NCBI GenBank assembly: GCA_016871375.1
Contig: VFYY01000002.1
Coordinates: 1,749-65,748, forward strand
Length of the DNA stretch: 64,000 nucleotides
Reading direction: 5' to 3'
Source: Acidimicrobiia bacterium
GTDB lineage: Bacteria > Acidobacteriota > Vicinamibacteria > Vicinamibacterales > UBA2999
Part shown: positions 20,526 to 59,153 of the stretch, piece by piece
How the letters are laid out: the number at the start of each line of letters is the position of its first letter
How positions within the stretch are numbered: the stretch's first letter is position 1
Program-made: the position numbers and the translations under genes
The notes under the pieces: generated by a model
What the model was told of the DNA's origin: nothing
The model's input: the letters and a program-made list of their open reading frames with translations, nothing else
Databases searched by the model: none

Positions 20526-20601
20526 TGGAGCCGGCGGTCGGACTTGAACCGACGACCTGCTGATTACGAATCAGCTGCTCTACCAACTGAGCTACGCCGG
20601 C
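20526..20601 (-). tRNA. tRNA-Thr (anticodon CGT)
   Basis: The reverse complement folds as a 76-nt cloverleaf: GCCGGCG-TA-GCTC AGTTGGTA GAGC-A-GCTGA TTCGTAA TCAGC-AGGTC-GTCGG TTCAAGT CCGAC-CGCCGGC-T-CCA. The anticodon loop gives CGT, and CCA is encoded. Confidence 0.92.
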
Positions 20602-37241: not shown

Positions 37242-37805
37242 ATGGCTTCCATACAGGCAACGCGTCTCAAGAAGGGCATGCTCATCAAGCAGGACCAGGA
37301 TCTGTTCCGGGTCCTCGAGCTGCAGCACGTCACCCCCGGCAACCTGCGCGGCTTCGTCCGCGTCAAGCTGCGCAACATCCGCAGCGGCACGCTGTCGGAC
37401 CAGAAGCTGCGCTCGGAAGACACGCTGGAGCGCGCCACGCTCGAACAGAAGGACATGCAGTTCCTCTACAAGGACGGCGAGGACTTCTACTTCATGGACA
37501 CGGCGTCCTACGACCAGATCCACATCTCCGGCGAGGCGCTCGGCGACTCGGTGAACTACCTGAAGCCGGAGATGACGATCGAGGTGGAGTTCTACGGCGA
37601 GGAGCCCGTCGGGATCGAGCTGCCGCAGACGGTGGACCTGAAGGTGACCGAGACCGTGCCCGGCATCAAGGGCGCGACCGCGAGCAACCAGGTGAAGCCG
37701 GCGACGCTCGAGACCGGGCTGGTCGTGCAGGTGCCCCCGTTCATCAACGAGGGCGACGTCGTTCGCGTCAGCACGGAATCCGGCGAATACCTCTCACGCG
37801 CGTAA
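37242..37805 (+). CDS. efp: Translation elongation factor P
   Basis: 187 aa from the internal ATG (MASIQATRLKKG). Colinear with E. coli EF-P through all three domains (..VKPATLETGLVVQVPPFINEGDVVRVSTESGEYLSRA). Confidence 0.9.
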   Translation: MASIQATRLKKGMLIKQDQDLFRVLELQHVTPGNLRGFVRVKLRNIRSGTLSDQKLRSEDTLERATLEQKDMQFLYKDGEDFYFMDTASYDQIHISGEALGDSVNYLKPEMTIEVEFYGEEPVGIELPQTVDLKVTETVPGIKGATASNQVKPATLETGLVVQVPPFINEGDVVRVSTESGEYLSRA

Positions 37806-37877
37806 TTAAGAATTAGGAATTACGAATTAGGAATTCGTGTCACGCATTCTTAATTCTTAATTCCGAATTTCTAATTA
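37803..37877. repeat. AT-rich hairpin built from 7-bp GAATTAN units between convergent efp and PQQ-dehydrogenase genes
   Basis: TAATTAA GAATTAG GAATTAC GAATTAG GAATTCG, then gtgtca, then the inverted partner CGCATTC TTAATTC TTAATTC CGAATTT CTAATTA. Confidence 0.8.
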
Positions 37878-39682: not shown

Positions 39683-40300
39683 ATGGAAGTCGTCAGACAC
39701 GCGGTCAATCAGGGCTGGATCGAAGTCATCGTCGGCAGCATGTTCAGCGGCAAGAGCGAGGAGCTCATCCGCCGCCTGCGGCGCGCGCAGATTGCGCGGC
39801 AGAAGGTCCAGATCTTCAAGCCGGCGCTGGACACGCGCTACGCGGACGATCAGATCGTCTCGCACAGCGAGATGCGCATCGACTCGCGCCCGGTCGCCAG
39901 CTCGCGGGCGCTCCTCGATTTGGTGGAGCCCGACACGGAGGTCGTCGGCATCGACGAAGGGCAGTTCTTCGACCCGGAGCTGCCGATGATCTGCAACACG
40001 CTCGCCGACCAGGGCAAGCGCGTCATCGTCGCCGGCCTCGATCAGGACTACCTCGGCAAGCCGTTCGAGCCGATGCCGCAGCTGCTCGCGATTGCGGAGT
40101 ACATCACCAAGACGCTCGCGATCTGCATGGTGTGCGGCAACCCCGCGAATCACACCCAGCGCCTCGTCGCCAGCGACGACCGGGTGCTCATCGGCGCGAC
40201 GGGCAAGTACGAGGCGCGCTGCCGGCGGTGCTTCGATCCCCGCCTGGCGGAAAACCCCAAATCCCAAACCCCCAAACCCAACTCACACGCCGAAGTCTGA
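39683..40300 (+). CDS. tdk: Thymidine kinase
   Basis: P-loop [23 protein letters not shown], and the zinc-ribbon Cys pairs CMVCG..CRRC of type II TK. Confidence 0.9.
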
Positions 40301-45464: not shown

Positions 45465-47312
45465 ATGCCCATTCACGACCTCAAGGAGCAGATCGCGCGG
45501 CTGCCCGAGCAGCCCGGCGTGTACCTGTGGCGCAACGCCGCCGGCGAGACGATCTACGTCGGCAAGGCGCGCGCGTTGAGGGATCGCGTGCGCAGCTACC
45601 TCGCGGCGGCGGGCATGAGCCCGCGCCACGACGCGCTGCTCGACGAGATCGCCTCGGTCGAGGTGATCGTCACCGACTCGGTCATGGAGGCGCTGGCGCT
45701 CGAGAACAACCTGATCAAGCAGCGGTCGCCGAAGTACAACATCCTGCTGCGCGACGACAAGAACTACCCGTTCCTGCAGCTCACGACGAGCGAGTCGTTT
45801 CCGCGGCTGCTGGTGGCGCGGCACGTCGAGAACGGCGCGGACTTCTACGCGGGCCCGTTCCTGCCGGCCAGGATCGCGCGGCGGTCGATGTCGCTGGCGC
45901 ACAAGCTGTTCGGCATCCGCTCGTGCAACGAGGTGATCACGGGCGAGCGCGGCCGGCCGTGTCTCGAATACGACATCAAGCGGTGCATCGCGCCGTGCGT
46001 GCGGGAGATCTGCACGGAGGAACAGTACGGGGTGGCCGTGGCCAGCACGAGGCTCCTGCTCGAGGGAAGGAACGACGAGTTGATCGACACGCTGCGCGAG
46101 CGGATGACGGACGCCGCGGGCGCGGAGCGGTTCGAGGAGGCGGCGCAGCTGCGCGACGCGCTGCGCACGGTCCAGATTCTGCGCGACCGGCAGCAGAAGG
46201 TGGCCACCGCGCAGCTCGGCGACCGCGACGTCTTCGGCCTGAAGGTCGGGCCGAGCGGGAGCGCGATCCAGGTGTTCGCGATGCGCGGCGGGCGCGTGGT
46301 CGAGCGCGTGGAGCTGGCGACCGGGCCCTTCGACTGCGCTCAGGGCACGCCCGGAATGGCCGACCCCGACGCAGAGGTCCTCGAGGCGGCGCTGCAGCAG
46401 TTCTACGAGCTGCGCGTGCCGCCGTCGGAGATTCACCTGCCGACCGGGATCGAGGACACGGAAGACGTCGAGGCGTGGCTGTCGGCGAAGGCCGGACGGA
46501 AGGTGCGGATCGTCGTGCCGCAGCGCGGCGACAAGAAGGCGCTCGTCGAGCTCGCCACGCGCAACGCGGAGCTGTCCTACCGCACGCGCTTCAACGAGAT
46601 CACGGCGGCGCACTTCGACGCGCTCGAAACGCTGCGCAGCGTCCTCGGCCTGGCCGCGATTCCGCGGCGGATCGAGTGCTTCGACATCTCGACGATCCAG
46701 GGCAGCGAGACCGTGGCGTCGATGGTCGTCTGCGAGGACGGCCGCATGAAGAAGAGCGAGTACCGCACGTTCCGCATTCGTTCCGCCGGCAGCCGGCAGC
46801 CGGCTGCCGGCAGTGACGACTTCGCCGCCATGCGTGAGGTCGTGGGGCGCCGCTACCGGACGATCATGGAGGACGGCGGCCCGTTCCCGGATCTCGTCCT
46901 CATCGACGGCGGCAAGGGTCAGTTGTCGGCGGCCTACGAGGCGCTCGAGCACATCGGGCTCGCGAACCTCGTCGCGGCCGGCATCGCCAAGAAGGAAGAA
47001 GTGATCGTGCTGCGCGACCGGCCGGAGCCGATTGTGTTCGCCGAGCACGATCCGGCGCTCCTGCTCATGCAGCGGATCAGGGACGAGGCGCACCGCTTCG
47101 CGGTGACGTTCCACCGCAAGGCGCGCTCGATGCGCGACCTCCGTTCCGAGCTCGACGCGGTGCCCGGCATCGGCCCGCGGCGGCGGCGCGCGCTGCTGAC
47201 CGCGTTCGGCAGCCTGGCCGGCGTCCGCCGCGCCACGCGCGAGGAGCTCGCCTCGGTGGTCGGCGCGAAGGCGGCGGCGGCGGTTATCGATTATTTCGCC
47301 AGGACCGTGTGA
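45465..47312 (+). CDS. uvrC: Excinuclease ABC subunit C
   Basis: GIY-YIG N-terminus (PGVYLWRNAAGETIYVGKARALRDRVRSY). UVR domain (ERFEEAAQLRDALR). Endonuclease and C-terminal HhH2 (LDAVPGIGPRRRRALLTAFGS). Confidence 0.95.
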   Translation: MPIHDLKEQIARLPEQPGVYLWRNAAGETIYVGKARALRDRVRSYLAAAGMSPRHDALLDEIASVEVIVTDSVMEALALENNLIKQRSPKYNILLRDDKNYPFLQLTTSESFPRLLVARHVENGADFYAGPFLPARIARRSMSLAHKLFGIRSCNEVITGERGRPCLEYDIKRCIAPCVREICTEEQYGVAVASTRLLLEGRNDELIDTLRERMTDAAGAERFEEAAQLRDALRTVQILRDRQQKVATAQLGDRDVFGLKVGPSGSAIQVFAMRGGRVVERVELATGPFDCAQGTPGMADPDAEVLEAALQQFYELRVPPSEIHLPTGIEDTEDVEAWLSAKAGRKVRIVVPQRGDKKALVELATRNAELSYRTRFNEITAAHFDALETLRSVLGLAAIPRRIECFDISTIQGSETVASMVVCEDGRMKKSEYRTFRIRSAGSRQPAAGSDDFAAMREVVGRRYRTIMEDGGPFPDLVLIDGGKGQLSAAYEALEHIGLANLVAAGIAKKEEVIVLRDRPEPIVFAEHDPALLLMQRIRDEAHRFAVTFHRKARSMRDLRSELDAVPGIGPRRRRALLTAFGSLAGVRRATREELASVVGAKAAAAVIDYFARTV

Positions 47313-49806: not shown

Positions 49807-50445
49807 ATGACCGAACACTCCCAACTCCCAACGCCCAACGCCCAAGGCGTCGTGTCCGCGGAGTTGAAGGCCATCGTCGAGGCGCTGATCTTCGCGTCGC
49901 CCGAGCCCATCACGCCGAAGATGCTGTTCCGGCTGCTGTCGGACGAGCCGAAGGAAGACGTCACCGCCGCCATCGCGGCGCTGCGCGCCGACTACGAGCA
50001 GCGTCCGGGCCTGCAGTTCGTCGAGGTGGCCGGCGGGTACCAGATCGTCACGCGCCCGGAGCTGCACGAATGGGTGCGGCGGCTGTTCCACGAGCGCTCG
50101 ACGCAGAAGCTCACCGTGCAGGGGCTGGAGACGCTGGCGGTCATCGCCTACAAGCAGCCGGTGACCGCGCTCGAGATCTCGGAGATCCGCGGCGTCAACA
50201 CCTCCGGCGTCCTCTCCACGCTCCTCGAGCGCCACCTGATCAAGATCGTCGGCCGCAAGAACGTCGTCGGCCGCCCGTTCCTCTACGCGACGACGAAGGA
50301 GTTCCTGATCCGGTTCGGCCTCAACGACCTGACCGACCTGCCGAAGGTCGAGGACATGGCCGCCGCGCTCGGCTTCGACCCGCCCGCGGGGCTCACCGAG
50401 CAGACGTTGCGCGAGGAGATGCTCCCGCTCGACGAACCCGAATAG
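49807..50445 (+). CDS. scpB: Segregation and condensation protein B
   Basis: LKAIVEALIFASPEPIT..LETLAVIAYKQPVTALEISEIRGV..GRPFLYATTKEFLIRFGL. Start at the ATG 1 nt after the scpA stop; 49786 is an alternative. Confidence 0.87.
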   Translation: MTEHSQLPTPNAQGVVSAELKAIVEALIFASPEPITPKMLFRLLSDEPKEDVTAAIAALRADYEQRPGLQFVEVAGGYQIVTRPELHEWVRRLFHERSTQKLTVQGLETLAVIAYKQPVTALEISEIRGVNTSGVLSTLLERHLIKIVGRKNVVGRPFLYATTKEFLIRFGLNDLTDLPKVEDMAAALGFDPPAGLTEQTLREEMLPLDEPE

Positions 50446-51220
50446 TTCCCGGTTCCGGGTTCCGGGTTCCGAGTTCGGCAGCTTTCTTCAACGCTCTCAC
50501 TTCATCCGCCTTCAGGTCGCGCCACTCGCCGCGCTTCAGCATCCGGTCGCTCAGCGGGCCGATCTTCACGCGCTTCAGCTTGTCCACCGGATGCCCGACG
50601 GCTTCGAGCATCCGGCGTACCTGCCGGTTGCGCCCTTCGCGAATTGTAATCAGCAGGACGCTGTCGCGCTTCTCGCGTACGTAGTGTCCGGCTTTAGCCG
50701 GACCCTTTGCGAGCAAGACCACCTGCGCCGGCAGCGTGCGCTTCCCGTCCAGCGGGATGCCCTTGCGCAGGCGTTCGAGCGCCTCGTGGTCCGGCATGCC
50801 GGCGACGCGCGCCTCGTAGGTGCGTTCAACGCCGTGGCGAGGGTGGGTGAGCGCGGCGGCAAGATCGCCGTCGTTGGTCAAGAGCAGCAGCCCCTCGGTG
50901 TCATAGTCGAGACGTCCCACCGGGTAGACGTACTCGCGCACGCCGGCCAGCAGATCGATGACCGTCGGCCGCCGCTGCGGATCCGATCGCGTGGTGACGA
51001 CGCCGGCGGGCTTGTTCAGCAGGATGTAGCGGAGGCGCTCGGCGGCCTTGATGCGGCGCCCGTCCACGCGGATGTCGTCGGCCGCGGGGTCGGCCTTCGT
51101 GCCCATTTCGCGCACCGTCGCGCCGTTGACGGAGACGCGGCCTTCGGCGATCAGCTTCTCGGCCGCGCGGCGCGAGGCCACACCGGCCTGCGACAGCGCT
51201 TTCTGGAGTCTTACGCGCAT
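50393..51220 (-). CDS. rluB: 23S rRNA pseudouridine synthase (RluB/RsuA family) with S4 domain
   Basis: MRVRLQKALSQAGVASRRAAEKLIAEGRVSVNG (S4). YPVGRLDYDTEGLLLLTNDG (catalytic Asp). The C-terminal ~30 aa run through a repeat and 53 nt of antisense scpB, so they are probably non-conserved. Confidence 0.85.
   Translation of the reverse strand: MRVRLQKALSQAGVASRRAAEKLIAEGRVSVNGATVREMGTKADPAADDIRVDGRRIKAAERLRYILLNKPAGVVTTRSDPQRRPTVIDLLAGVREYVYPVGRLDYDTEGLLLLTNDGDLAAALTHPRHGVERTYEARVAGMPDHEALERLRKGIPLDGKRTLPAQVVLLAKGPAKAGHYVREKRDSVLLITIREGRNRQVRRMLEAVGHPVDKLKRVKIGPLSDRMLKRGEWRDLKADEVRALKKAAELGTRNPEPGTIRVRRAGASPRATSAR
50445..50478. repeat. 7-bp tandem array GTTCCSG x5
   Basis: GTTCCCG GTTCCGG GTTCCGG GTTCCGA GTTCGG, read directly. 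An inverse-orientation array lies at 56193-56227. Confidence 0.8.
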
Positions 51221-51535: not shown

Positions 51536-52708
51536 TCACTTCCCGAGAACGTCTGCCCAGAACGAGATGAGCTTCCAGCTCTCCGACGCGGCGGCGGCGC
51601 GATCGAGCTCCGCGTGCGTGATGATGTGGCTGATCAGGACGCGGACGTCCGCGCTCTTCTCGCGCAGGTCGTTCGCGAGCACGATGGACTCGGCGGTCGG
51701 GATGACGGTGTCCTCGTCGCCGTGCAGCAGGAAGATCGGCGCGGCGGGCGCCATCGGCGCGAGCTCGGGCGAGGCGGCCGCGTCGGACTGACTGCCAAGG
51801 TGCGGCAGCAGCAGGGGACCCATCTCCTTCACGTTCCGCTCGTTCACCCACTTCAGATACGTCGCCGAAGGCTCGGGCAGTCCCTTTTCCATGTCACGCG
51901 CCTTCTGGAACGTCTCGTTGGCCTGGTTCATGTCCACCAGCGTGAGCTGCGACGCGTACAGGAACGTGCGGATGCCGTCGCGCAGTCCTTCGACCTGCGC
52001 CGGCGGGACGACGCGATCGGCGGCGGAGTAGAGGATGACGGCAACGCCGTAGTCGTGCGGCGGGTGCGTCTCGACGCCGGGCGCTTCGACGGCTTCGCCG
52101 GTGGCGAGGTACTTGAGCACCCGGCCAAGGTTGCCATGGCCGCCGAACGAGACGACGAATGCCACCTTGTCGCGGATGGAGTCGCGCCCCGCGGCGACGA
52201 TGGAGAGGCCGCCGGCGAAGCTGATGCCGACCATGCCCACCTTGCCGTCGGGCGCGAGATCCTCGCGCGCGGCCATCCACGCCACCGCGTCCTCGAGGAC
52301 GTCGGCCGAGCGCGCGGTGATCTGGTAGCCGATGAGATCGGGCAGCGCCATGGTCATCACGGTCACGCCGCTGCCGGCCAGATCGCGGGCGAGACCCATG
52401 AGCCGCGGTTCCCGCACGCCGAAGGAGTGGACGCCTGGCACGAGGAGCACCGCCCGCCGCGAACCGCCGCGCGGCCGGTAGAACTGCGCGGTGACCTCGC
52501 CCTGCCGCGTCGGCACGAGGTGCGGCTCCTCGACGTCCACGATGCTGGCGCGCGAGTCCGCGAACGCTTCCACGCGGCCGCCGAGATTCGCGGAGCGGAC
52601 GAAGAGCGACGCCGCACGGACGTACGGCACCGCCGCCGAGTAGCCGGCGATGACGATCAGGACGAGGGTGATGGCGATCCAGGCAAGGGCGCGACGCATC
52701 GGAGGCAT
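51536..52708 (-). CDS. Alpha/beta hydrolase, membrane-anchored
   Basis: Start at the internal ATG (MPPMRRALAWIAITLVLIVIAGY anchor). Nucleophile elbow GISFAGG. C-terminal His region LLHGDEDTVIP. Confidence 0.72.
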   Translation of the reverse strand: MPPMRRALAWIAITLVLIVIAGYSAAVPYVRAASLFVRSANLGGRVEAFADSRASIVDVEEPHLVPTRQGEVTAQFYRPRGGSRRAVLLVPGVHSFGVREPRLMGLARDLAGSGVTVMTMALPDLIGYQITARSADVLEDAVAWMAAREDLAPDGKVGMVGISFAGGLSIVAAGRDSIRDKVAFVVSFGGHGNLGRVLKYLATGEAVEAPGVETHPPHDYGVAVILYSAADRVVPPAQVEGLRDGIRTFLYASQLTLVDMNQANETFQKARDMEKGLPEPSATYLKWVNERNVKEMGPLLLPHLGSQSDAAASPELAPMAPAAPIFLLHGDEDTVIPTAESIVLANDLREKSADVRVLISHIITHAELDRAAAASESWKLISFWADVLGK

Positions 52709-52713
52709 GGTAC

Positions 52714-52807
52714 CATTTGTGATTTGTGATTTGTGATTTGTGATTTGCGATTTGCGATTTGTGATGTGAGACAACGGAGATCGCAAATCGCAAATCAGAA
52801 ATCACAA
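52714..52807. repeat. Hairpin built from 7-bp units (TTTGYGA x7 / inverted ATCRSAA x4) filling the whole divergent intergenic region
   Basis: TTTGTGA x4, TTTGCGA x2, TTTGTGA, then tgtgagacaacggag, then ATCGCAA ATCGCAA ATCAGAA ATCACAA. The cmk ATG follows directly. Confidence 0.88.
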
Positions 52808-53473
52808 ATGAAGAAGCTGATCATCGCGATCGATGGGCCGTCGGGAGCGGGGAAGGGCACCGTCGCGCGGACGCTGTCGGAGCACCTGGGCTACCGGCAC
52901 GTGGACACCGGCGCGATGTACCGCGCGGTCGCGTGGAAGGCGACGCAGGAGGGGCTGCCGCTCGACAACGAGGACGCCGTGGCGGCTCTCTCGCGTCGCG
53001 CCGACATCGTCGTCGAAGGCGGTATCGTCTCGATTGACGGCCACGATGTCAGCCGGACGATCCGCACGCCGGAGATGGACAAGGCGGCCGCCGCCGTCGC
53101 GCGGCTGCCGCGCGTCCGCGAGACGCTGGTCGCGCGCCAGCGCACGCTGGGCGAGGGCGGCGGCGTCGTCATGGAAGGGCGCGACATCGGGACCGTCGTG
53201 TTCCCGCAGGCGGACGTCAAGATCTATCTGGACGCGTCGGAGGAAGAACGCGCGCGGCGGCGCTTGAACGACGCGGCGCACACCGGCGGCAAGGCCGGCC
53301 AGGCGGCGGTCGCGGAGTCGATTGCGGCGCGCGATCGATCGGATAAAACGCGAACGGCGTCGCCGCTGACGCTCGCGGCCGACGCCGAATACATCGACAC
53401 GACCGGCATGCCCATTGAACAGGTCGTTCAGACCGTGCTGGAAGCCGTACAGCGCAAGCTGCTACACCCCTGA
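52808..53473 (+). CDS. cmk: Cytidylate kinase
   Basis: MKKLIIAIDGPSGAGKGTVARTLSEHLGYRHVDTGAMYRAVAW is diagnostic. Confidence 0.92.
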   Translation: MKKLIIAIDGPSGAGKGTVARTLSEHLGYRHVDTGAMYRAVAWKATQEGLPLDNEDAVAALSRRADIVVEGGIVSIDGHDVSRTIRTPEMDKAAAAVARLPRVRETLVARQRTLGEGGGVVMEGRDIGTVVFPQADVKIYLDASEEERARRRLNDAAHTGGKAGQAAVAESIAARDRSDKTRTASPLTLAADAEYIDTTGMPIEQVVQTVLEAVQRKLLHP

Positions 53474-53596
53474 CGCGTCACTTGCACGGAAAATCTGATC
53501 CCGTCGGCGCCTGAAGCGCCACGGCGCCTGCGACAGGACCATATCCTTCGCCGCACCGATTTCGTCCCCCGTCTGACATCCCTCCCGGAGGTTGGA

Positions 53597-54076
53597 ATGA
53601 GATTCGTGTGCGCTCCTGCGCTCGCGCCCTTCGTGCTGGCCCTCGGCACGGCAACGGCCGCTGCCCAACAGACTCCGTTGACGGTCGCGCCAACGGGAAA
53701 CGTCGGCATCGGCACGGCGGCGCCGGCGCACAAGCTGGATGTGCAGGGCGGCGAGATCAACGCCTCCGGTGGCCTGTGCATCGCCGGCGACTGCAAGACG
53801 TCGTGGAGCCAGGTGACCTTCGGGCCAGGCCTGACGCTGACCGGCGGGAACCTTGGAGTCGGTACGACGACGCCGGCGTACCGCCTCGACGTGCAGGGCG
53901 GGCAGATCAACGCGTCTGGCGGCCTGTGCATCGCGGGTGACTGCAAGACGTCGTGGAGCCGGTCTGTCACAGGCAGCCTGCGCCGCGGCGACAGTCCTTC
54001 CGGGCATCAGCAACAACTCGCAGTACTGTTCGAACGCCGGCGCACAGGTCTTATGACTTTGCGGCCCGGGCGCTGA
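53597..54076 (+). pseudogene. Secreted protein with two 44-aa tail-fibre-like repeats; probable frameshift after repeat 2
   Basis: GGAGG Shine-Dalgarno and signal peptide MRFVCAPALAPFVLALGTATAAA. The repeat GN[VL]G[IV]GT..PA.[KR]LDVQGG.INASGGLCIAGDCKTSWS occurs twice. After 53960 the protein-like reading (GLSQAACAAATVLPGISNNSQYCSNAGAQVL*) is in another frame. Confidence 0.5.
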
Positions 54077-54142
54077 CGAAACAACCGGTCGCGTTTGCCG
54101 ACAGCCCGGATGTCCCGTGCAACTGAGAACCGCGGAGTACTA

Positions 54143-54605
54143 ATGCGCCGCATCTTGCTGTCCGATTCGTACTGGTGGATCGCACTGTTTTGTGTTCGTC
54201 ACCGCGCAGTTCATGGTTGAGGCGGCGCAGAGTAGTTCCCTTGTGACACTTAACCAGCGGATCGGGCAGATTATCTACGTGCTCGATACATCAGGAGTTG
54301 AAACATTGGCGCGGTGCGTTCGCGCTACGGATCGAGAACTTGTCGCGACAGTCGGAGGCGCCGAAACGACGATTCCGGTGGACAGAATCCGTCGAGTCTC
54401 TGTCGCGGGTGATACCGTCAAGGACGGGGCGCTATGGGGTGCCGTATCCGGCGTCTTGCCTGGCGTATTTGGGTGCCAGGGTTCGAGTGACAACGATTGT
54501 TCGGTTGCCGCCTCACTCGTAGCCGGCGTCGGCGCGTTTGCGGCAATCGGTGCGTGGATGGATCACCGAAAGTCCGGACGGACGGTCATCTATCAGCGGC
54601 CATAG
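54143..54605 (+). pseudogene. Hypothetical membrane protein, apparently split by a 1-nt frameshift in a T4 run
   Basis: ATG at 54143 with GGAG 6 nt upstream encodes MRRILLSDSYWWIALFC.., then stops. The 137-aa ORF (54192..54605) continues the hydrophobic helix one frame over. Lower GC and atypical codons. C-terminal TM VAGVGAFAAIGAWM. Confidence 0.45.
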
Positions 54606-54699
54606 CGCGACGCCCTCTGCACGTGAGCTGGCTGAGCCGATTCCATTCAGCTGGCACCTTGCGATCGTTCGAGTTCAAGAATCAAGACCGACAGCACTT

Positions 54700-55110
54700 T
54701 CATCTCAGGCGAGCGCGGACTGACGCGACGAACCGCAGGAGATCGTCGAGGCGATGCTCGACGATGTCCCGCACGATGACGAGATCGACCGACTGGTAGC
54801 CGTGCACCAGCACGTTGCGGAACCCGGCCATCTGCTTCATCGTTACCACCAGATCGGCGGCCAGCCAGCCGCCGCGGGCCAGCAGGTCGAACAGGTGCCG
54901 CTGCGTGTCCGGTTCGCCGAGCCGCTCGTCGGAGACGATGTGCGAGGCGACGTCGAGCACCGCCTGGATCGCCACCTGCAGCGTGTGCTCGACGAAGCGC
55001 TCCTCCTTGATATCGTGCGCCAGCGCGGCAGGCCTGGCCAGCCGCCGCAGGTCGGCGACGCATGTCTCGATGAGCGCCAGCTTCTTGGCGACCAGGTCCG
55101 GATCGGTCAT
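54700..55110 (-). CDS. hepT: HepT-like toxin (DUF86, RNase of MNT/HEPN type II TA)
   Basis: R-x4-H-x-Y motif in GFRNVLVHGYQSV. 136 aa. ATGA overlap with the upstream mntA. Confidence 0.85.
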   Translation of the reverse strand: MTDPDLVAKKLALIETCVADLRRLARPAALAHDIKEERFVEHTLQVAIQAVLDVASHIVSDERLGEPDTQRHLFDLLARGGWLAADLVVTMKQMAGFRNVLVHGYQSVDLVIVRDIVEHRLDDLLRFVASVRARLR

Positions 55111-55514
55111 CGGGATGGGCGCCGCGGCGTGCGGTACAGACGGCGGACGGGCTCCAGGTCGAAGTACTCGTTGCGCGACCGTACCTCGAAGGCGATCCGC
55201 CGGCCGCGATCGCGATCGAGGAGCAGGACCCCGTCGCGCAGGACGCGATGGACGAGATCGGGCGGCGCTGTCTCGAGCGCCACGACATCCACGTTCCGCC
55301 GGCTCGCCGCCTCGAGCCTGTTGCGGAGATCCTCCAGCGGAAGCGACAGCGGCGCGAGCGGGCCACTCCGTCCCACGACGCCGATGTCAAGGTCGCTGTC
55401 AGGAGCCGCCTCGTCCCGCGACACGCTGCCATACAGGTAGATGGCTGCGATGGCCTCAGAGGCGCCCTGACAGGCTATGCGCACTCGTTCGACGAGATCG
55501 GCCGGGCTCATCAA
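55107..55514 (-). CDS. mntA: MntA-like nucleotidyltransferase antitoxin
   Basis: Minimal NTase motif YLYGSVSRDEAAPDSDLDIGVV (G-S-x9-11-D-x-D). 135 aa. Confidence 0.85.
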   Translation of the reverse strand: MMSPADLVERVRIACQGASEAIAAIYLYGSVSRDEAAPDSDLDIGVVGRSGPLAPLSLPLEDLRNRLEAASRRNVDVVALETAPPDLVHRVLRDGVLLLDRDRGRRIAFEVRSRNEYFDLEPVRRLYRTPRRPSR

Positions 55515-55546
55515 TCGATTCTACCGGCGTTCGCGTGCGTGAGGCG

Positions 55547-56179
55547 TCAGCGATCCTCGTAGTCGTCCGACGAGGCCGGATCCAGCTCCCACCGCTTCCT
55601 GTCGCGGTCGCTGATCTTCTTTTCGCCTTTCAGTTCCTCGTTGTCCTCGTAGACGACGCCGATCGCCTTGCCGATGTCGTCCACGATGTCCTGGTCGGGC
55701 GTGGGGTTGTCGCCGCCCGGCGCTTCGTCGCCCACGCTGTAGGCCGACTCCCAGTCCGCGTCGATGTCGCCGCCGGTGAGCGCGGGGCTGGTCTCGGTGT
55801 GTTGGCGGAACTTTTCGCTGAGCTCGCGGCGTCCGGAGCGGGCGGCCGAGGCCGTACGGTCGAGGTCGAGCGAGGAGGGCGGCGACGGCACGAGATCCTC
55901 GTCCACGACGGTGCGGCGCTGGCGCTCGAGCGACGGGGCTTTCCGGGCCACGACTTTCGCGGGCGCCTTCCGGGCCTGCACCAGGGGGCGCCGAGGCGCC
56001 GCCTTCTTTTTCGGAGCGGCCTTGCGGGCCTGGCCCGAGCGACGGCGAGGAGCTGGAGCCTTCTTCTTCGGCGCCTTGCGGGCCGCCTTCCGGACGGCCG
56101 CTGTTCTGGCTTTCCTGGCGCCTTTCGCGGCCCGCTTGCGGCCGGTCTTCCGTGCGGGCTTGGCCTTCCGCTTCGCCAT
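55547..56179 (-). CDS. Histone-H1-like Lys/Ala/Pro-rich N-terminus fused to a conserved acidic C-terminal domain (unknown function)
   Basis: N-terminal 95 aa is MAKRKAKPARKTGRKRAAKGARKARTAAVRKAARKAPKKKAP... The C-terminus is TGGDIDADWESAYSVGDEAPGGDNPTPDQDIVDDIGKAIGVVYEDNEEL..RDRKRWELDP. I recall this C-terminal pattern from a DUF family (possibly DUF6335), unverified. Confidence 0.65.
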   Translation of the reverse strand: MAKRKAKPARKTGRKRAAKGARKARTAAVRKAARKAPKKKAPAPRRRSGQARKAAPKKKAAPRRPLVQARKAPAKVVARKAPSLERQRRTVVDEDLVPSPPSSLDLDRTASAARSGRRELSEKFRQHTETSPALTGGDIDADWESAYSVGDEAPGGDNPTPDQDIVDDIGKAIGVVYEDNEELKGEKKISDRDRKRWELDPASSDDYEDR

Positions 56180-56192
56180 CGCGCGATCCTTT

Positions 56193-56227
56193 CCGAACCC
56201 GGAACGTGGAACCCGGAACCGGGAACC
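56193..56227. repeat. 7-bp tandem array CSGGAAC x5 (inverse of 50445 array)
   Basis: CCGAACC CGGAACG TGGAACC CGGAACC GGGAACC, read directly. Confidence 0.8.
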
Positions 56228-56242
56228 TAAGTCGTTGTTACC

Positions 56243-56271
56243 TTGACAGTTACCGATAAGTGACCTAATAT
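56243..56271 (+). promoter_or_regulatory. Near-consensus sigma-70-type promoter for rpsA (TTGACA-17 nt-TAATAT)
   Basis: TTGACA at 56243-48, exactly 17 nt of spacer, TAATAT at 56266-71. Implies a leader of about 250 nt before the rpsA ATG. Confidence 0.55.
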
Positions 56272-56528
56272 CTACGTCTTATCGGCGAGGCACAACTGCT
56301 CACAGTGGGTGGCTGAGTTGCTTGGTAGCCAGGTAGCTCGGGCGACGCTTGTCCCAGTCCACCCAGCTACCCAGCAACTTCGCTACCAGGTGCATCGCCG
56401 TTATAGCCGCGGGGGGCCGGTCCCCGCAACAGAAACCGGCATGCCCTGAGCACAGTCGAAGGGCGAGAGCCCGCAGCGAGCCCGCGCACGCAGCGTTCGC
56501 AGGGCCACGAGGAGGACGCGCGACACAC

Positions 56529-58307
<1,779 letters not shown>

Positions 58308-58316
58308 GGAGCACCT

Positions 58317-58676
58317 GTGAACACACCGGGCGGCAGCATGACGAAGGCGGAGCTCGTCGAGGAAGTCTCGCGGGTCTCCGACCTCACGAAGAAGCACTCG
58401 GAAGTCATCGTCGACACGGTCTTCAAGAGCATCATCGATGCGCTGCACCGGGGCGAGAAGATCGAGCTGCGCGGATTCGGGAGCTTCAGGCTGCGCAAGC
58501 GCGAGCCGCGCAAGGGCCGCAACCCGAAGACGGGCGACAAGGTCGACGTGCCGCCCAAGAAGGTGCCCTACTTCAAGCCCGGCAAGGAGCTGAAGGACCT
58601 CATCAACCGCGAGCCCGCTGACCAGTCGATGGACGGCGGCGCCGCGGCCGCCGCGCCCGACGCCGCCGCCGTCTAA
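58317..58676 (+). CDS. Integration host factor / HU family DNA-binding protein (IHF-beta-like)
   Basis: MTKAELVEEV..GEKIELRGFGSFRLRKREPRKGRNPKTGDKVDVPPKKVPYFKPGKELK. GTG 58317 has AAGGAG 5 nt upstream; ATG 58338 is the alternative. Ala-rich C-terminal tail. Confidence 0.85.
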   Translation: MNTPGGSMTKAELVEEVSRVSDLTKKHSEVIVDTVFKSIIDALHRGEKIELRGFGSFRLRKREPRKGRNPKTGDKVDVPPKKVPYFKPGKELKDLINREPADQSMDGGAAAAAPDAAAV

Positions 58677-59153
58677 GTGGAACGGCTGTGGTCGCCGTGG
58701 CGGCTTGAATATGTGACGAGCGCCGATCGCACGACCGGCTGCATCTTCTGCCTCAAAGAGGAAAAGGCCCTCATCGTTCATGAGGGCCTTACTTCGTACG
58801 TCATCCTCAACCTGTACCCCTATAACAACGGTCACCTCATGGTGGTCCCGTACCGTCACGTCGGCTCGCTCGCTGCGCTCACGCCAGAGGAGCTGCAGGA
58901 GATTGGCGTGCTCACGCAGCGGTGCGAGGCGGCGATCGCCGAAGCGTACGACGCGCACGGAATGAACATCGGCATCAATCTCGGCAAGCCGGCGGGCGCC
59001 GGCGTCCTCGATCATCTGCACGTGCACGTCGTGCCGCGCTGGAACGGCGACACCAACTTCATCACCGTCATCGGCGAGATGCGCGTGCTGCCGGAAGAGC
59101 TCGGTGCGTCCGCCGCACGGCTGAGGCCCATCTTCGAGCGCCTGTCGCGGTAG
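58677..59153 (+). CDS. HIT family protein (Ap4A phosphorylase/GalT-like branch)
   Basis: LWSPWRLEYV..CIFC..YVILNLYPYNNGHLMVVP..histidine triad HLHVHVVPRW. The stop TAG lies in a REP-A head. Confidence 0.85.
   Translation: MERLWSPWRLEYVTSADRTTGCIFCLKEEKALIVHEGLTSYVILNLYPYNNGHLMVVPYRHVGSLAALTPEELQEIGVLTQRCEAAIAEAYDAHGMNIGINLGKPAGAGVLDHLHVHVVPRWNGDTNFITVIGEMRVLPEELGASAARLRPIFERLSR

What the first reader, a model, noticed from the sequence alone, without database searches (positions are those of the whole stretch)
53474..56528. About 3-kb islet splits the conserved cmk-rpsA-ihf linkage
cmk (ends 53473) and rpsA-ihf (from 56529) are adjacent in E. coli (cmk-rpsA-ihfB) and in many other bacteria. 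Here they are separated by about 3 kb containing:
- a secreted tail-fibre-like repeat protein, apparently frameshifted
- a membrane protein split at a T4 run
- a MntA/HepT toxin-antitoxin pair
- a histone-H1-like protein

The 54.1-54.7 kb portion is visibly less GC-rich and uses atypical codons (aca, tca, gtt, ttg).

The islet is bounded on the right by the CSGGAAC tandem array (56193-56227). No integrase or tRNA is present, so the mechanism of acquisition is unclear.
Basis: partly seen in the sequence, partly recalled or inferred. Interest (0 to 1): 0.6.

Follow-up and report, generated by a model that had tools for sequence, protein, structure and literature searches.

The report
Two-kilobase accessory islet after cmk
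A 2-kb patch of accessory genes (an intact toxin-antitoxin pair and two damaged secreted-protein genes) sits between two housekeeping genes of an uncultured Acidobacterium, at a junction where relatives carry other cargo or none; it is an ordinary gene-exchange hot spot, not a new kind of element.

Summary
The genome is a Vicinamibacterales (Acidobacteriota) MAG.

- **DUF6335 is resident, not cargo.** The "histone-H1-like" gene (55547-56179, minus strand) lies between cmk and rpsA in 21 of 26 related species genomes. It does so again in 117 of 135 informative further loci.
- **The heptamer array is not a border.** The CSGGAAC array is one of about 350 period-7 arrays in this genome.
- **The real insert is about 2.07 kb (53474-55546).** It lies between the convergent 3' ends of cmk and DUF6335. 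A close relative (L264; rpsA 98%, cmk 88.5% identical) has identical flanking gene order and an empty site.
- **The insert is a mosaic of three modules.**
  - A signal peptide plus two tail-fibre-type repeats, without the usual C-terminal domain.
  - A small secreted-protein gene with foreign composition (GC3 0.63 against 0.91), split by one extra T at 54188-54191.
  - An intact type VII MntA/HepT pair with both catalytic motifs.
- **The sequence is real.** Ten independent public assemblies are 100% identical across it, frameshift included.
- **The junction is variable.** About 30% of relatives carry other cargo there.
- **No mobility features were found:** no integrase, nearby tRNA, flanking repeats or attC sites.

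The likeliest origin is stepwise gain at a hot spot that lacks mobile elements.

The parts
52808..53473 (+). cmk (cytidylate kinase), the left flanking core gene. Its last ~8-10 codons (about 53445-53473) have no counterpart in the empty-site relative.
   Evidence: Pfam PF02224, 8.5e-71. Alignment with L264 loses similarity after about 53445.
53474..55546 (.). The lineage-specific insert (about 2.07 kb) between the convergent 3' ends of cmk and DUF6335. Its DNA is unique in the genome.
   Evidence: Empty site in L264, where cmk and DUF6335 overlap by 16 nt. Absent from about 160 related loci. No second copy in the genome.
53597..54076 (+). ORF for a signal peptide plus two tail-fibre-type repeats (GNVGIGT..P..KLDVQGG..NASGGLCIAGDCKTSWS). 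Probably a truncated remnant: the last ~38 codons (53960-54076) lose the coding GC3 signal.
   Evidence: Homologues are 'tail fiber domain' proteins with C-terminal PF11962/PF13884. PHROG tail-fibre hits at 2e-7. GC3 frame plot. No C-terminal remnant found by tblastn. Only 1 of 150 genomes of the order has any homologue.
54143..54605 (+). Small secreted-protein gene of an unnamed family: signal peptide, Sm/SH3-like beta-barrel, then a Gly-rich helical hairpin. It is split by one extra T in the T4 run 54188-54191. The intact 137-aa ORF is 54192-54605. Its composition is foreign.
   Evidence: 347 homologous cluster representatives, at most 48% identical, all with 15-35 extra N-terminal residues. 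Alignment A1. GC3 0.63 and CAI 0.32. AlphaFold pLDDT 83. Sm/Hfq-like fold, TM about 0.75 on the target, E 3e-3. The same sequence appears in 10 independent assemblies.
54700..55110 (-). hepT, the type VII toxin (HEPN RNase). The RX4HXY motif is present as R-NVLV-H-G-Y.
   Evidence: Pfam PF01934, 1.1e-29. NCBIfam equivalog HepT_toxin, 123.7 bits against a cut-off of 60. Motif read from the translation and defined in PMC7641770.
55107..55514 (-). mntA, the type VII antitoxin (adenylyltransferase). The GSX10DXD motif is present as GS-VSRDEAAPDS-DLD. It overlaps hepT by 4 nt (ATGA). The likely start is the ATG at 55511.
   Evidence: Pfam PF18765/PF01909. NCBIfam equivalog MntA_antitoxin, 80.2 bits against a cut-off of 60. 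Public gene calls give 134 aa.
55547..56179 (-). Lys/Ala/Pro-rich (histone-H1-like) N-terminal tail plus a DUF6335 domain. A long-standing resident between cmk and rpsA in this order, not part of the insert.
   Evidence: PF19861, 4.5e-37. Present after cmk in 21 of 26 and 117 of 135 informative loci. More than 7,229 homologous clusters, some also hitting PF07382 HC2.
56195..56227 (.). Heptamer tandem array (GAACCCG x 4.7) in the DUF6335/rpsA divergent intergenic region. One of about 350 such arrays in the genome, not an islet border.
   Evidence: TRF. Genome-wide there are 351 period-7 arrays against 16 of period 6 and 46 of period 8, and 12 arrays share this unit.
56243..56271 (+). Sigma-70-like promoter (TTGACA-17-TAATAT) for rpsA, giving a leader of about 250 nt.
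   Evidence: Consensus scan: 10 of 12 matches, with 0.3 expected in shuffles.
56529..58676 (+). rpsA (56529-58307) and the HU/IHF-type gene (58317-58676), the right flanking core genes.
   Evidence: Six S1 domains, 2.5e-97, and PF00216, 4.6e-34. 77-98% identical in relatives.

Best explanation
**What it is.** In Vicinamibacterales the usual gene order is cmk(+) | DUF6335/H1-like(-) | rpsA(+)-ihf-HIT. The 3' ends of cmk and DUF6335 are convergent and nearly touch. That junction is a local hot spot for accessory genes. In this species it holds a 2.07-kb mosaic (53474-55546) of three unrelated modules.

**How it was probably built.**
1. A type VII MntA/HepT toxin-antitoxin operon was inserted directly behind the DUF6335 stop codon. 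It is shared with at least one near relative, so it is the older part.
2. A compositionally foreign small secreted-protein gene was added on the cmk side. It is now frameshifted in its signal peptide.
3. A fragment of a tail-fibre-type repeat protein was also added on the cmk side.

**What works now.** Only the toxin-antitoxin pair looks functional. MntA would poly-adenylylate the Tyr of the RX4HXY motif in HepT and so silence its RNase activity.

**How it got there (inferred, not shown).** No mobility gene or site is present. [quoted passage not shown] The addictive toxin-antitoxin pair may then slow deletion of the patch.
For: **DUF6335 is resident (shown).** It lies after cmk in 21 of 26 species genomes of the family and order. 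It does so in 117 of 160 further loci, 25 of which end too soon to tell.

**Hot spot (shown).** The cmk-to-DUF6335 gap is under 300 bp in 82 of 117 loci and 0.3-5 kb in 35 of 117. Recurrent alternative cargos are:
- a YdeI-like gene;
- a PLP-dependent decarboxylase with an aldehyde dehydrogenase;
- a 440-aa secreted protein;
- a 761-aa protein.

**Empty site (shown).** L264 has the same gene order from trpS-scpAB-rluB-hydrolase-cmk to rpsA-ihf-HIT. Identities are rpsA 98%, hydrolase 92% and cmk 88.5%. Its cmk and DUF6335 overlap by 16 nt. DNA similarity resumes exactly at the DUF6335 stop codon, 55547.

**Mosaic (shown).**
- GC is 0.675, 0.589 and 0.684 for the three segments.
- GC3 is 0.86 for the repeat core, 0.63 for the secreted-protein gene, and 0.90/0.81 for hepT/mntA.
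- Phyletic patterns differ. The repeat gene occurs in 1 of 150 genomes of the order. The secreted-protein family occurs in 37 of 150, at 25-45% identity. HepT orthologues at 63-72% occur in about 10 of 150 genomes of the order and 7 of 193 of the family.
- The toxin-antitoxin orthologues are always paired and always sit in unrelated contexts.

**Stepwise build (partly shown).** The contig carrying P0201, whose DUF6335 is 86% identical overall, reads DUF6335, a 35-bp gap, MntA (134 aa), a 4-nt overlap, HepT (135 aa). It then continues into different genes, a PAP2 fragment and a 78-aa ORF.

**Toxin-antitoxin pair intact.** NCBIfam equivalogs score above cut-off. Both signature motifs are present as defined in PMC7641770.

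**Real sequence, not an artefact.** Ten independent assemblies (JGI, ENA, Logan) are 100% identical over 52808-56600.

**No mobility signature.** No tRNA, no flanking direct or inverted repeats, no attC-like sites, no structured spacers and no repeated DNA.

**Precedent.** Hot spots without mobile elements that diversify by recombination at flanking core genes are described in PMC5635113.
Against: - The acquisition mechanism is inferred only. No recombination signal in the flanking genes was tested.
- No donor was found for any module.
- DNA of the P0201 contig could not be read. Orthology of its toxin-antitoxin pair with the window's rests on gene sizes, spacing and Pfam families.
- The order of events assumes that contig is from a closer relative than L264. 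Support is modest: DUF6335 is 86% against 79% identical, and the C-terminal domain is nearly invariant in all three.
- The repeat ORF and the 137-aa ORF could still be expressed as they stand, so "damaged" is a judgement from homologues.
Confidence: 0.75

Rival explanations
1. One reading: one acquired islet of about 3 kb (53474-56528) that includes the H1-like gene and is bounded on the right by the CSGGAAC array.
For: All five genes lie between cmk and rpsA, which are adjacent in E. coli (established knowledge) and in a few members of this order: L050, L051, L055 and L056.
Against: DUF6335 occupies this position across the order, with native composition (GC3 0.87). The array belongs to a genome-wide class of 351 arrays. 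It lies beyond DUF6335, next to the rpsA promoter.
Confidence: 0.03
2. A single transfer brought all 2.07 kb at once from a donor that already carried the three modules in this order. The compositional mosaic was inherited from that donor.
For: All ten assemblies carry the identical full insert. No intermediate with only two modules was seen in this species.
Against: A near relative's contig shares DUF6335-MntA-HepT and then diverges immediately after hepT. The three modules have very different GC3 and very different distributions. No locus elsewhere links any two of them.
Confidence: 0.15
3. DUF6335/H1-like, MntA and HepT form a functional three-gene module. They lie on the same strand with a 32-35-bp gap and may be co-transcribed.
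For: The same arrangement and spacing occur in a second lineage. The three genes are co-directional. The only -10-like hexamer for mntA (TAGAAT, 55523-55518) lies in the short spacer (read).
Against: More than 135 loci have DUF6335 without any MntA/HepT. All 10 examined orthologous MntA/HepT pairs in other genomes lack a DUF6335 neighbour. DUF6335 is tied to rpsA, not to toxin-antitoxin genes. The two lineages that share the arrangement are close relatives, so common descent explains it.
Confidence: 0.05
4. The content is ancestral and was deleted in relatives, or the arrangement is an assembly or binning chimera.
For: The genome is a 295-contig MAG. Deletions are common in bacteria.
Against: Ten independent assemblies from different samples and assemblers agree base for base. 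About 160 relatives lack these genes here, and the tight cmk/DUF6335 junction is the commonest state. The foreign codon usage of the secreted-protein gene argues for gain.
Confidence: 0.03

Closest known systems
Type VII HepT/MntA (HEPN/MNT) toxin-antitoxin system, e.g. Shewanella oneidensis SO_3166/SO_3165 (Yao et al. 2020, PMC7641770)
   Same: - It is a two-gene operon with the antitoxin first and a 4-nt overlap.
- The domains are PF01934 (HepT) and PF01909/PF18765 (MNT).
- Both RX4HXY and GSX10DXD motifs are present.
- NCBIfam equivalog scores are above cut-off.
- The distribution is patchy and looks mobile.
   Different: - Activity has not been tested.
- The pair sits 32-35 bp behind a conserved chromosomal gene (DUF6335) with no obvious -35 element of its own.
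- The nearest sequenced orthologues are only 63-72% identical.
Hot spots of horizontal transfer that lack mobile elements and are flanked by core genes (Oliveira et al. 2017, PMC5635113)
   Same: - It is one short interval between conserved core genes.
- Many alternative gene contents occur among relatives.
- No integrase, transposase, tRNA or repeats are present.
- Content turns over between close relatives.
   Different: - It was defined here across an order of uncultured genomes rather than within a species.
- The raised homologous recombination at the flanks that supports that model was not measured here.
Classical genomic island or islet (tRNA-linked, integrase-borne, flanked by direct repeats)
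   Same: It holds accessory genes, part of it has deviant GC and codon use, and close relatives lack it.
   Different: It has no integrase, tRNA or direct repeats and is only 2 kb. Only about 0.65 kb is compositionally deviant.
'Tail fiber domain-containing' repeat proteins with a C-terminal intramolecular chaperone (Pfam PF13884 Peptidase_S74, PF11962 Peptidase_G2)
   Same: It has the same about 45-aa repeat (GNVGIGT..P.YKLDVQGGQINASGGLCIAGDCKTAWSQV), 53-82% identical within a repeat.
   Different: The window ORF has only a signal peptide and two repeats. No chaperone or other C-terminal domain is found in any frame.

Membership tests
[quoted passage not shown] | Toxin with a HEPN/DUF86 (PF01934) domain | tested here: met
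   PF01934, 1.1e-29. NCBIfam NF047751 equivalog, 123.7 bits against a cut-off of 60.
[quoted passage not shown] | RX4HXY motif in the toxin (RNase site plus the acceptor Tyr) | tested here: met
   R-NVLV-H-G-Y in '...MAGFRNVLVHGYQSV...' (translation). The motif is defined in PMC7641770.
[quoted passage not shown] | Antitoxin with a minimal nucleotidyltransferase domain carrying GSX10DXD | tested here: met
   PF18765, 2.8e-15, and PF01909. NF047752 equivalog, 80.2 bits against a cut-off of 60. The motif reads GS-VSRDEAAPDS-DLD.
[quoted passage not shown] | Adjacent, co-directional gene pair with the antitoxin upstream | tested here: met
   mntA is 55514-55107 and hepT is 55110-54700, a 4-nt overlap. 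The same pairing is seen in 10 of 10 orthologous loci examined.
[quoted passage not shown] | HepT toxicity, and its neutralisation by MntA-dependent adenylylation | not testable with these tools
   This needs expression and mass-spectrometry assays.
Classical genomic island | Integrase or recombinase gene, tRNA or tmRNA target, and flanking direct repeats | tested here: not met
   All ORFs of the insert are assigned and none is a recombinase. The only tRNA in the window is at 20526. No boundary repeats were found.
Classical genomic island | Deviant base composition and codon use over the island | tested here: inconclusive
   Only 54.05-54.70 kb deviates (lowest 0.5% of genome windows). The toxin-antitoxin pair and the repeat gene are near-native.
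Integron cassette array / attC cluster | attC sites (RYYYAAC ... GTTRRRY imperfect palindromes) after each cassette | tested here: not met
   No core-site pairs in the insert or anywhere in the 64-kb window. The spacers fold no better than shuffled sequence, z -0.8 to +1.2.
Transfer hot spot without mobile elements (Oliveira et al. 2017) | One interval between conserved core genes with many alternative accessory contents across genomes | tested here: met
   35 of 117 loci carry 0.3-5 kb of at least five different cargos, and 82 of 117 are empty.
Transfer hot spot without mobile elements (Oliveira et al. 2017) | Excess homologous recombination or phylogenetic incongruence in the flanking core genes | not tested
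   This needs population-level or multi-genome alignments of cmk, DUF6335 and rpsA with ClonalFrameML-type analysis.
Tail-fibre-domain repeat proteins with an intramolecular chaperone | GNVGIGT...KLDV-type repeats | tested here: met
   Two repeats. Homologues score down to 2e-35. PHROG tail-fibre families hit at 2e-7.
Tail-fibre-domain repeat proteins with an intramolecular chaperone | C-terminal Peptidase_S74/G2 chaperone domain | tested here: not met
   No Pfam hit. No match to the homologues' C-termini in any frame up to 54720.
DUF6335 (PF19861) | Match to the family profile above the gathering score | tested here: met
   127.7 bits against a cut-off of 25, residues 111-210.

The most novel reading that the evidence does not exclude
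The convergent cmk|DUF6335 junction may be a targeted insertion site used across Vicinamibacterales by an unrecognised mechanism that needs no integrase. One possibility is a mechanism directed at the overlapping 3' ends or terminator of the two genes, rather than passive recombination between the flanks. This would explain why at least six unrelated cargos land at one point in about 30% of genomes, and why the window's right junction falls exactly at the DUF6335 stop codon.
Probability: 0.08. Interest if true: 0.55.

Novelty: new member of a known kind. Interest (0 to 1): 0.25.

Why it matters
**For annotation**
- It corrects the map. The H1-like/DUF6335 gene is a core neighbour of rpsA in Vicinamibacterales, not cargo.
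- A real but frameshifted gene of an unnamed secreted-protein family is missed by the gene callers in every public assembly of this population.

**For biology**
- It documents, in an uncultured and little-studied order, a hot spot without mobile elements. Content turns over between close relatives: empty site, toxin-antitoxin pair only, and toxin-antitoxin pair plus two decaying genes.
- That makes the junction a usable marker for strain tracking. It is also a small natural test of whether a toxin-antitoxin pair outlives its neighbours.

None of this changes current understanding of how islands form.

Tried and rejected
- **Flanking repeats.** No direct or inverted repeat pair marks the borders; all candidates look like chance matches of 15-20 nt at 75-88% identity.
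- **Integron cassettes.** No attC core-site pairs and no structured spacers.
- **Dispersed repeats as borders.** The insert's four spacers are unique in the genome. Only the DUF6335/rpsA spacer holds dispersed repeats.
- **RNA genes.** Rfam found nothing real; the only hits are spurious miRNA matches to the heptamer hairpin at 52713-52811.
- **Replacement of a YdeI-like gene.** Several relatives have one at this spot, but no remnant is present here.
- **Frameshift rescue of the repeat gene.** tblastn with 47 homologues found no downstream match in any frame. The alternative frames give Arg-rich, low-GC3 sequence.
- **Defence-system libraries.** PADLOC gave only generic nucleotidyltransferase hits for MntA (PDC-S09, 1.8e-11) and nothing for the other genes.
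- **Word-based protein search with the 137-aa ORF.** It found nothing, because gene callers skip this ORF. The exhaustive HMMER search was needed.
- **Read-level checks.** Ten independent assemblies served as a substitute.
- **Assembly artefact.** Rejected on the same grounds.
- **Literature.** No paper in the held library mentions DUF6335 or heptamer arrays in Vicinamibacteria.

Full report
**1. What is in the sequence**

The window is contig C2:1749-65748 of a 4.2-Mb, 295-contig MAG with 68.9% GC. Titles of the nearest public records place it in Acidobacteriota, order Vicinamibacterales, formerly subdivision gp6.

ORF listing and Pfam give the following map.

| Coordinates | Strand | Gene |
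|---|---|---|
| 50393-51220 | - | rluB |
| 51536-52786 | - | alpha/beta-hydrolase |
| 52808-53473 | + | cmk |
| 53597-54076 | + | 159-aa repeat ORF |
| 54192-54605 | + | 137-aa ORF |
| 54700-55110 | - | hepT |
| 55107-55514 | - | mntA |
| 55547-56179 | - | Lys/Ala-rich tail plus DUF6335 |
| 56529-58307 | + | rpsA |
| 58317-58676 | + | HU/IHF-type gene |
| 58677-59153 | + | HIT |

**2. The H1-like gene is resident, not cargo**

I fetched the cmk neighbourhood from 26 other species genomes of the family and order and scored the window's proteins against them.
- In 21 of 26, a DUF6335 gene lies on the opposite strand directly after cmk and before rpsA-ihf-HIT.
- Four have cmk and rpsA directly adjacent (L050, L051, L055, L056).
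- One has neither DUF6335 nor rpsA nearby.

A second set of 160 loci from genome and metagenome collections gave the same picture.
- 117 have DUF6335 after cmk.
- 25 end too soon to tell.
- 8 have rpsA without DUF6335.
- 10 have neither.

The gene has native composition, with GC3 0.87. It belongs to a very large family of more than 7,229 clusters at E <= 1e-30. Some members also hit Pfam HC2, the histone-H1-like nucleoprotein family. "H1-like" is therefore a fair description. The gene's place between cmk and rpsA is nevertheless the normal state in this order.

**3. The real insert and its empty site**

None of these roughly 185 loci carries the repeat gene, mntA or hepT near cmk.

The best comparison is L264, a 74-kb metagenome contig. 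It has the same gene order on both sides: trpS-scpA-scpB-rluB-hydrolase-cmk on the left and rpsA-ihf-HIT on the right, with an acyl-CoA-dehydrogenase-like gene further along. Identities to the window are high.

| Gene | Identity to window |
|---|---|
| rpsA | 98% |
| ihf | 97% |
| hydrolase | 92% |
| cmk | 88.5% |

In L264, cmk and DUF6335 overlap tail to tail by 16 nt.
- On the right, DNA similarity between the two genomes resumes exactly at the DUF6335 stop codon, 55547.
- On the left, it fades within the last 8-10 codons of cmk, at about 53445-53473.

The insert is therefore 53474-55546, about 2.07 kb. It seems to have given cmk a new C-terminal tail.

**4. The junction is a hot spot**

The cmk-to-DUF6335 distance was measured across 117 loci.
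- It is under 300 bp in 82 loci.
- It is 0.3-5.2 kb in 35 loci.

The larger gaps hold recurrent but unrelated cargos:
- a YdeI-like gene, about 0.6-0.8 kb;
- a PLP-dependent decarboxylase plus an aldehyde dehydrogenase, about 2.9 kb, sometimes with extra genes up to 5 kb;
- a 440-aa secreted protein, about 1.45 kb;
- a 761-aa protein.

This matches the published description of transfer hot spots that lack mobile elements and diversify between conserved core genes (PMC5635113).

**5. The three modules**

(a) *Repeat ORF (53597-54076).*
- It encodes a signal-peptide-like N-terminus and two copies of a 150-nt unit.
- Homologues are "tail fiber domain-containing" proteins, many with a C-terminal PF11962 or PF13884 chaperone domain. 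PHROG tail-fibre families match weakly.
- After repeat 2 the third-position GC signal of the frame collapses.
- No frame downstream matches any homologue.
- I read it as a truncated remnant rather than a single frameshift.
- Only 1 of 150 other genomes of the order has any homologue.

(b) *Small secreted-protein gene (54143-54605).*
- An exhaustive HMMER search found 347 cluster representatives, at most 48% identical. Most are 140-190 aa, and their match to the query starts 15-35 residues in.
- Those extra residues are signal peptides. In the window the equivalent peptide (MRRILLSDSYWWIALF...) is encoded at 54143-54190 in another frame. Dropping one T of the TTTT run at 54188-54191 joins it to the main ORF and aligns it with relatives.
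- The model is confident (pLDDT 83). It shows an Sm/SH3-like five-stranded barrel, a Gly-rich helical hairpin and a closing strand. PDB matches to Hfq/Sm folds are structural only, with E about 3e-3.
- Its composition is foreign.

| Measure | This gene | Genome |
|---|---|---|
| GC3 | 0.63 | 0.91 |
| CAI | 0.32 | first percentile 0.464 |
| A/T-ending codons | 37% | 9% |
| GC of 54000-54699 | 0.593 | lowest 0.5% of 700-bp windows |

- Homologues in relatives mostly match their own host's composition.
- The family is patchy in the order: 37 of 150 other genomes, at 25-45% identity.
- In two relatives (L040, L184) a member lies just upstream of cmk.

(c) *mntA-hepT (55514-54700, minus strand).*
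- Both score as NCBIfam equivalogs of the type VII system: 80.2 and 123.7 bits against cut-offs of 60.
- The GSX10DXD and RX4HXY motifs that define the pair (PMC7641770) are both present.
- The genes overlap by 4 nt.
- Orthologous pairs, with HepT 63-72% identical, occur in about 10 of 150 genomes of the order and 7 of 193 of the family. They are always paired, sit in unrelated contexts and are never next to DUF6335.
- Composition is near-native.
- This is the only module that looks intact.

**6. The order of events**

A 2.2-kb contig from another sample encodes a DUF6335 that is 86% identical overall to the window's. The L264 protein is 79% identical. The contig's gene table reads as follows:
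- DUF6335, then a 35-bp gap;
- a 134-aa MNT protein, then a 4-nt overlap;
- a 135-aa HepT-like protein;
- then a PAP2 fragment and a 78-aa ORF on the same strand.

The spacing and sizes match the window, but the continuation differs. Its DNA could not be read.

Taken with L264, three states exist among close relatives: an empty site, the toxin-antitoxin pair with other neighbours, and the toxin-antitoxin pair with the secreted-protein gene and the repeat fragment. The simplest reading is that the toxin-antitoxin pair arrived first, directly behind DUF6335. The cmk-side part was then gained or exchanged later. This step is inferred.

**7. Mechanism**

- No integrase or transposase is in the insert.
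- The only tRNA in the window is 33 kb away.
- There are no boundary repeats, no attC sites and no repeated DNA.
- A REP-associated transposase gene about 4.6 kb to the right was reported earlier. It is not known to move cargo.

[quoted passage not shown] I did not test for recombination in the flanks.

**8. The heptamer array**

The array at 56195-56227 lies between the DUF6335 start and a strong sigma-70-like rpsA promoter at 56243-56271.
- The genome has 351 period-7 arrays, against 16 of period 6 and 46 of period 8. Twelve share this unit.
- Related loci are at least as rich, at 163 arrays per Mb.
- None of 18 relatives has an array of three or more heptamer units in its DUF6335/rpsA spacer; three show only 2-3-unit period-7 or period-14 repeats of other units.

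It is a lineage-wide repeat class and not an islet border.

**9. Is the sequence trustworthy?**

The exact repeat protein is found on 12 contigs. Ten independent assemblies (JGI, ENA, Logan) cover all or part of 52808-56600 and are 100% identical to the window wherever they overlap; nine of them span the T4 run and all ten include the end of repeat 2. Every contig that carries the exact cmk protein also carries the insert.

**10. Verdict**

- The thing is a small mosaic accessory patch, free of mobile elements, at a lineage-wide hot spot. It contains one working-looking type VII toxin-antitoxin pair and two decaying genes.
- It is a new member of known kinds and of modest interest.

Noticed in passing
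whole genome; in the window e.g. 37804-37876, 40252-40281, 46785-46813, 49820-49845, 50445-50476, 52715-52809, 56195-56227: Tandem heptamer arrays are strikingly over-represented. The genome has 351 period-7 arrays, against 16 of period 6 and 46 of period 8, with many different units. Related Vicinamibacterales loci are at least as rich (163 per Mb). They recall cyanobacterial heptamer STRR repeats (from memory). No paper on them was found in the held library.
   Followed up: partly
window 55547-56179 and L031-L251: A Lys/Ala/Pro-rich (H1/HC2-like) tail fused to a nearly invariant acidic DUF6335 domain is a conserved, divergently transcribed neighbour of rpsA across Vicinamibacterales. It has more than 7,229 homologous clusters. 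The C-terminal 100 residues are almost identical among the three close relatives aligned. No paper mentions DUF6335. It is a candidate nucleoid or ribosome-linked protein.
   Followed up: partly
window 54143-54605; L252-L262: Public gene calls for all ten assemblies of this population leave 54077-54699 empty. The frameshifted secreted-protein gene is unannotated everywhere, and its family (347 clusters at 50% identity) has no Pfam or NCBIfam model. The predicted fold is an Sm/SH3-like barrel plus a Gly-rich helical hairpin behind a signal peptide.
   Followed up: yes
L040:2494-2985 and L184:958-1290: In two relatives a member of the same small secreted-protein family lies immediately upstream of cmk and in the same direction. 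The family therefore turns up on either side of cmk in different genomes.
   Followed up: no
L264:5654-5669: In the empty-site relative, cmk and DUF6335 overlap tail to tail by 16 nt. The window's cmk has a different C-terminal tail (…QRKLLHP), apparently supplied by the inserted DNA.
   Followed up: partly
window 55518-55523 (minus strand): A TAGAAT hexamer lies 3 nt before the TTG and 6 nt before the ATG of mntA, in the 32-nt spacer after DUF6335. If it is a -10 box, the mntA-hepT mRNA would be leaderless. Otherwise the pair is read through from DUF6335.
   Followed up: no
L113, L099, L223, L228 and about 10 other loci, between cmk and DUF6335: A recurrent alternative cargo at the same junction is a PLP-dependent decarboxylase (about 475 aa) plus an aldehyde dehydrogenase (about 458 aa), sometimes with one extra gene inserted between or after them.
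   Followed up: partly
L035 (G015), L047 (G022), L109, L124, L149, L160, L171: In these relatives no rpsA lies within 6-9 kb downstream of cmk. The cmk-rpsA linkage is fully broken in a minority of the order.
   Followed up: no
window 52713-52811: The hairpin of heptamer units between the hydrolase gene and cmk draws spurious Rfam microRNA hits (mir-988, 34.5 bits, E 2e-4). This is a trap for automated RNA annotation.
   Followed up: no
window 54186-54194: The frame break reads CUG UUU UGU, that is, U UUU followed by a Cys codon that is rare in this genome. A +1 slip of tRNA-Phe would in principle restore the full secreted protein. There is no evidence for programmed frameshifting, and homologues have no such break.
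   Followed up: no
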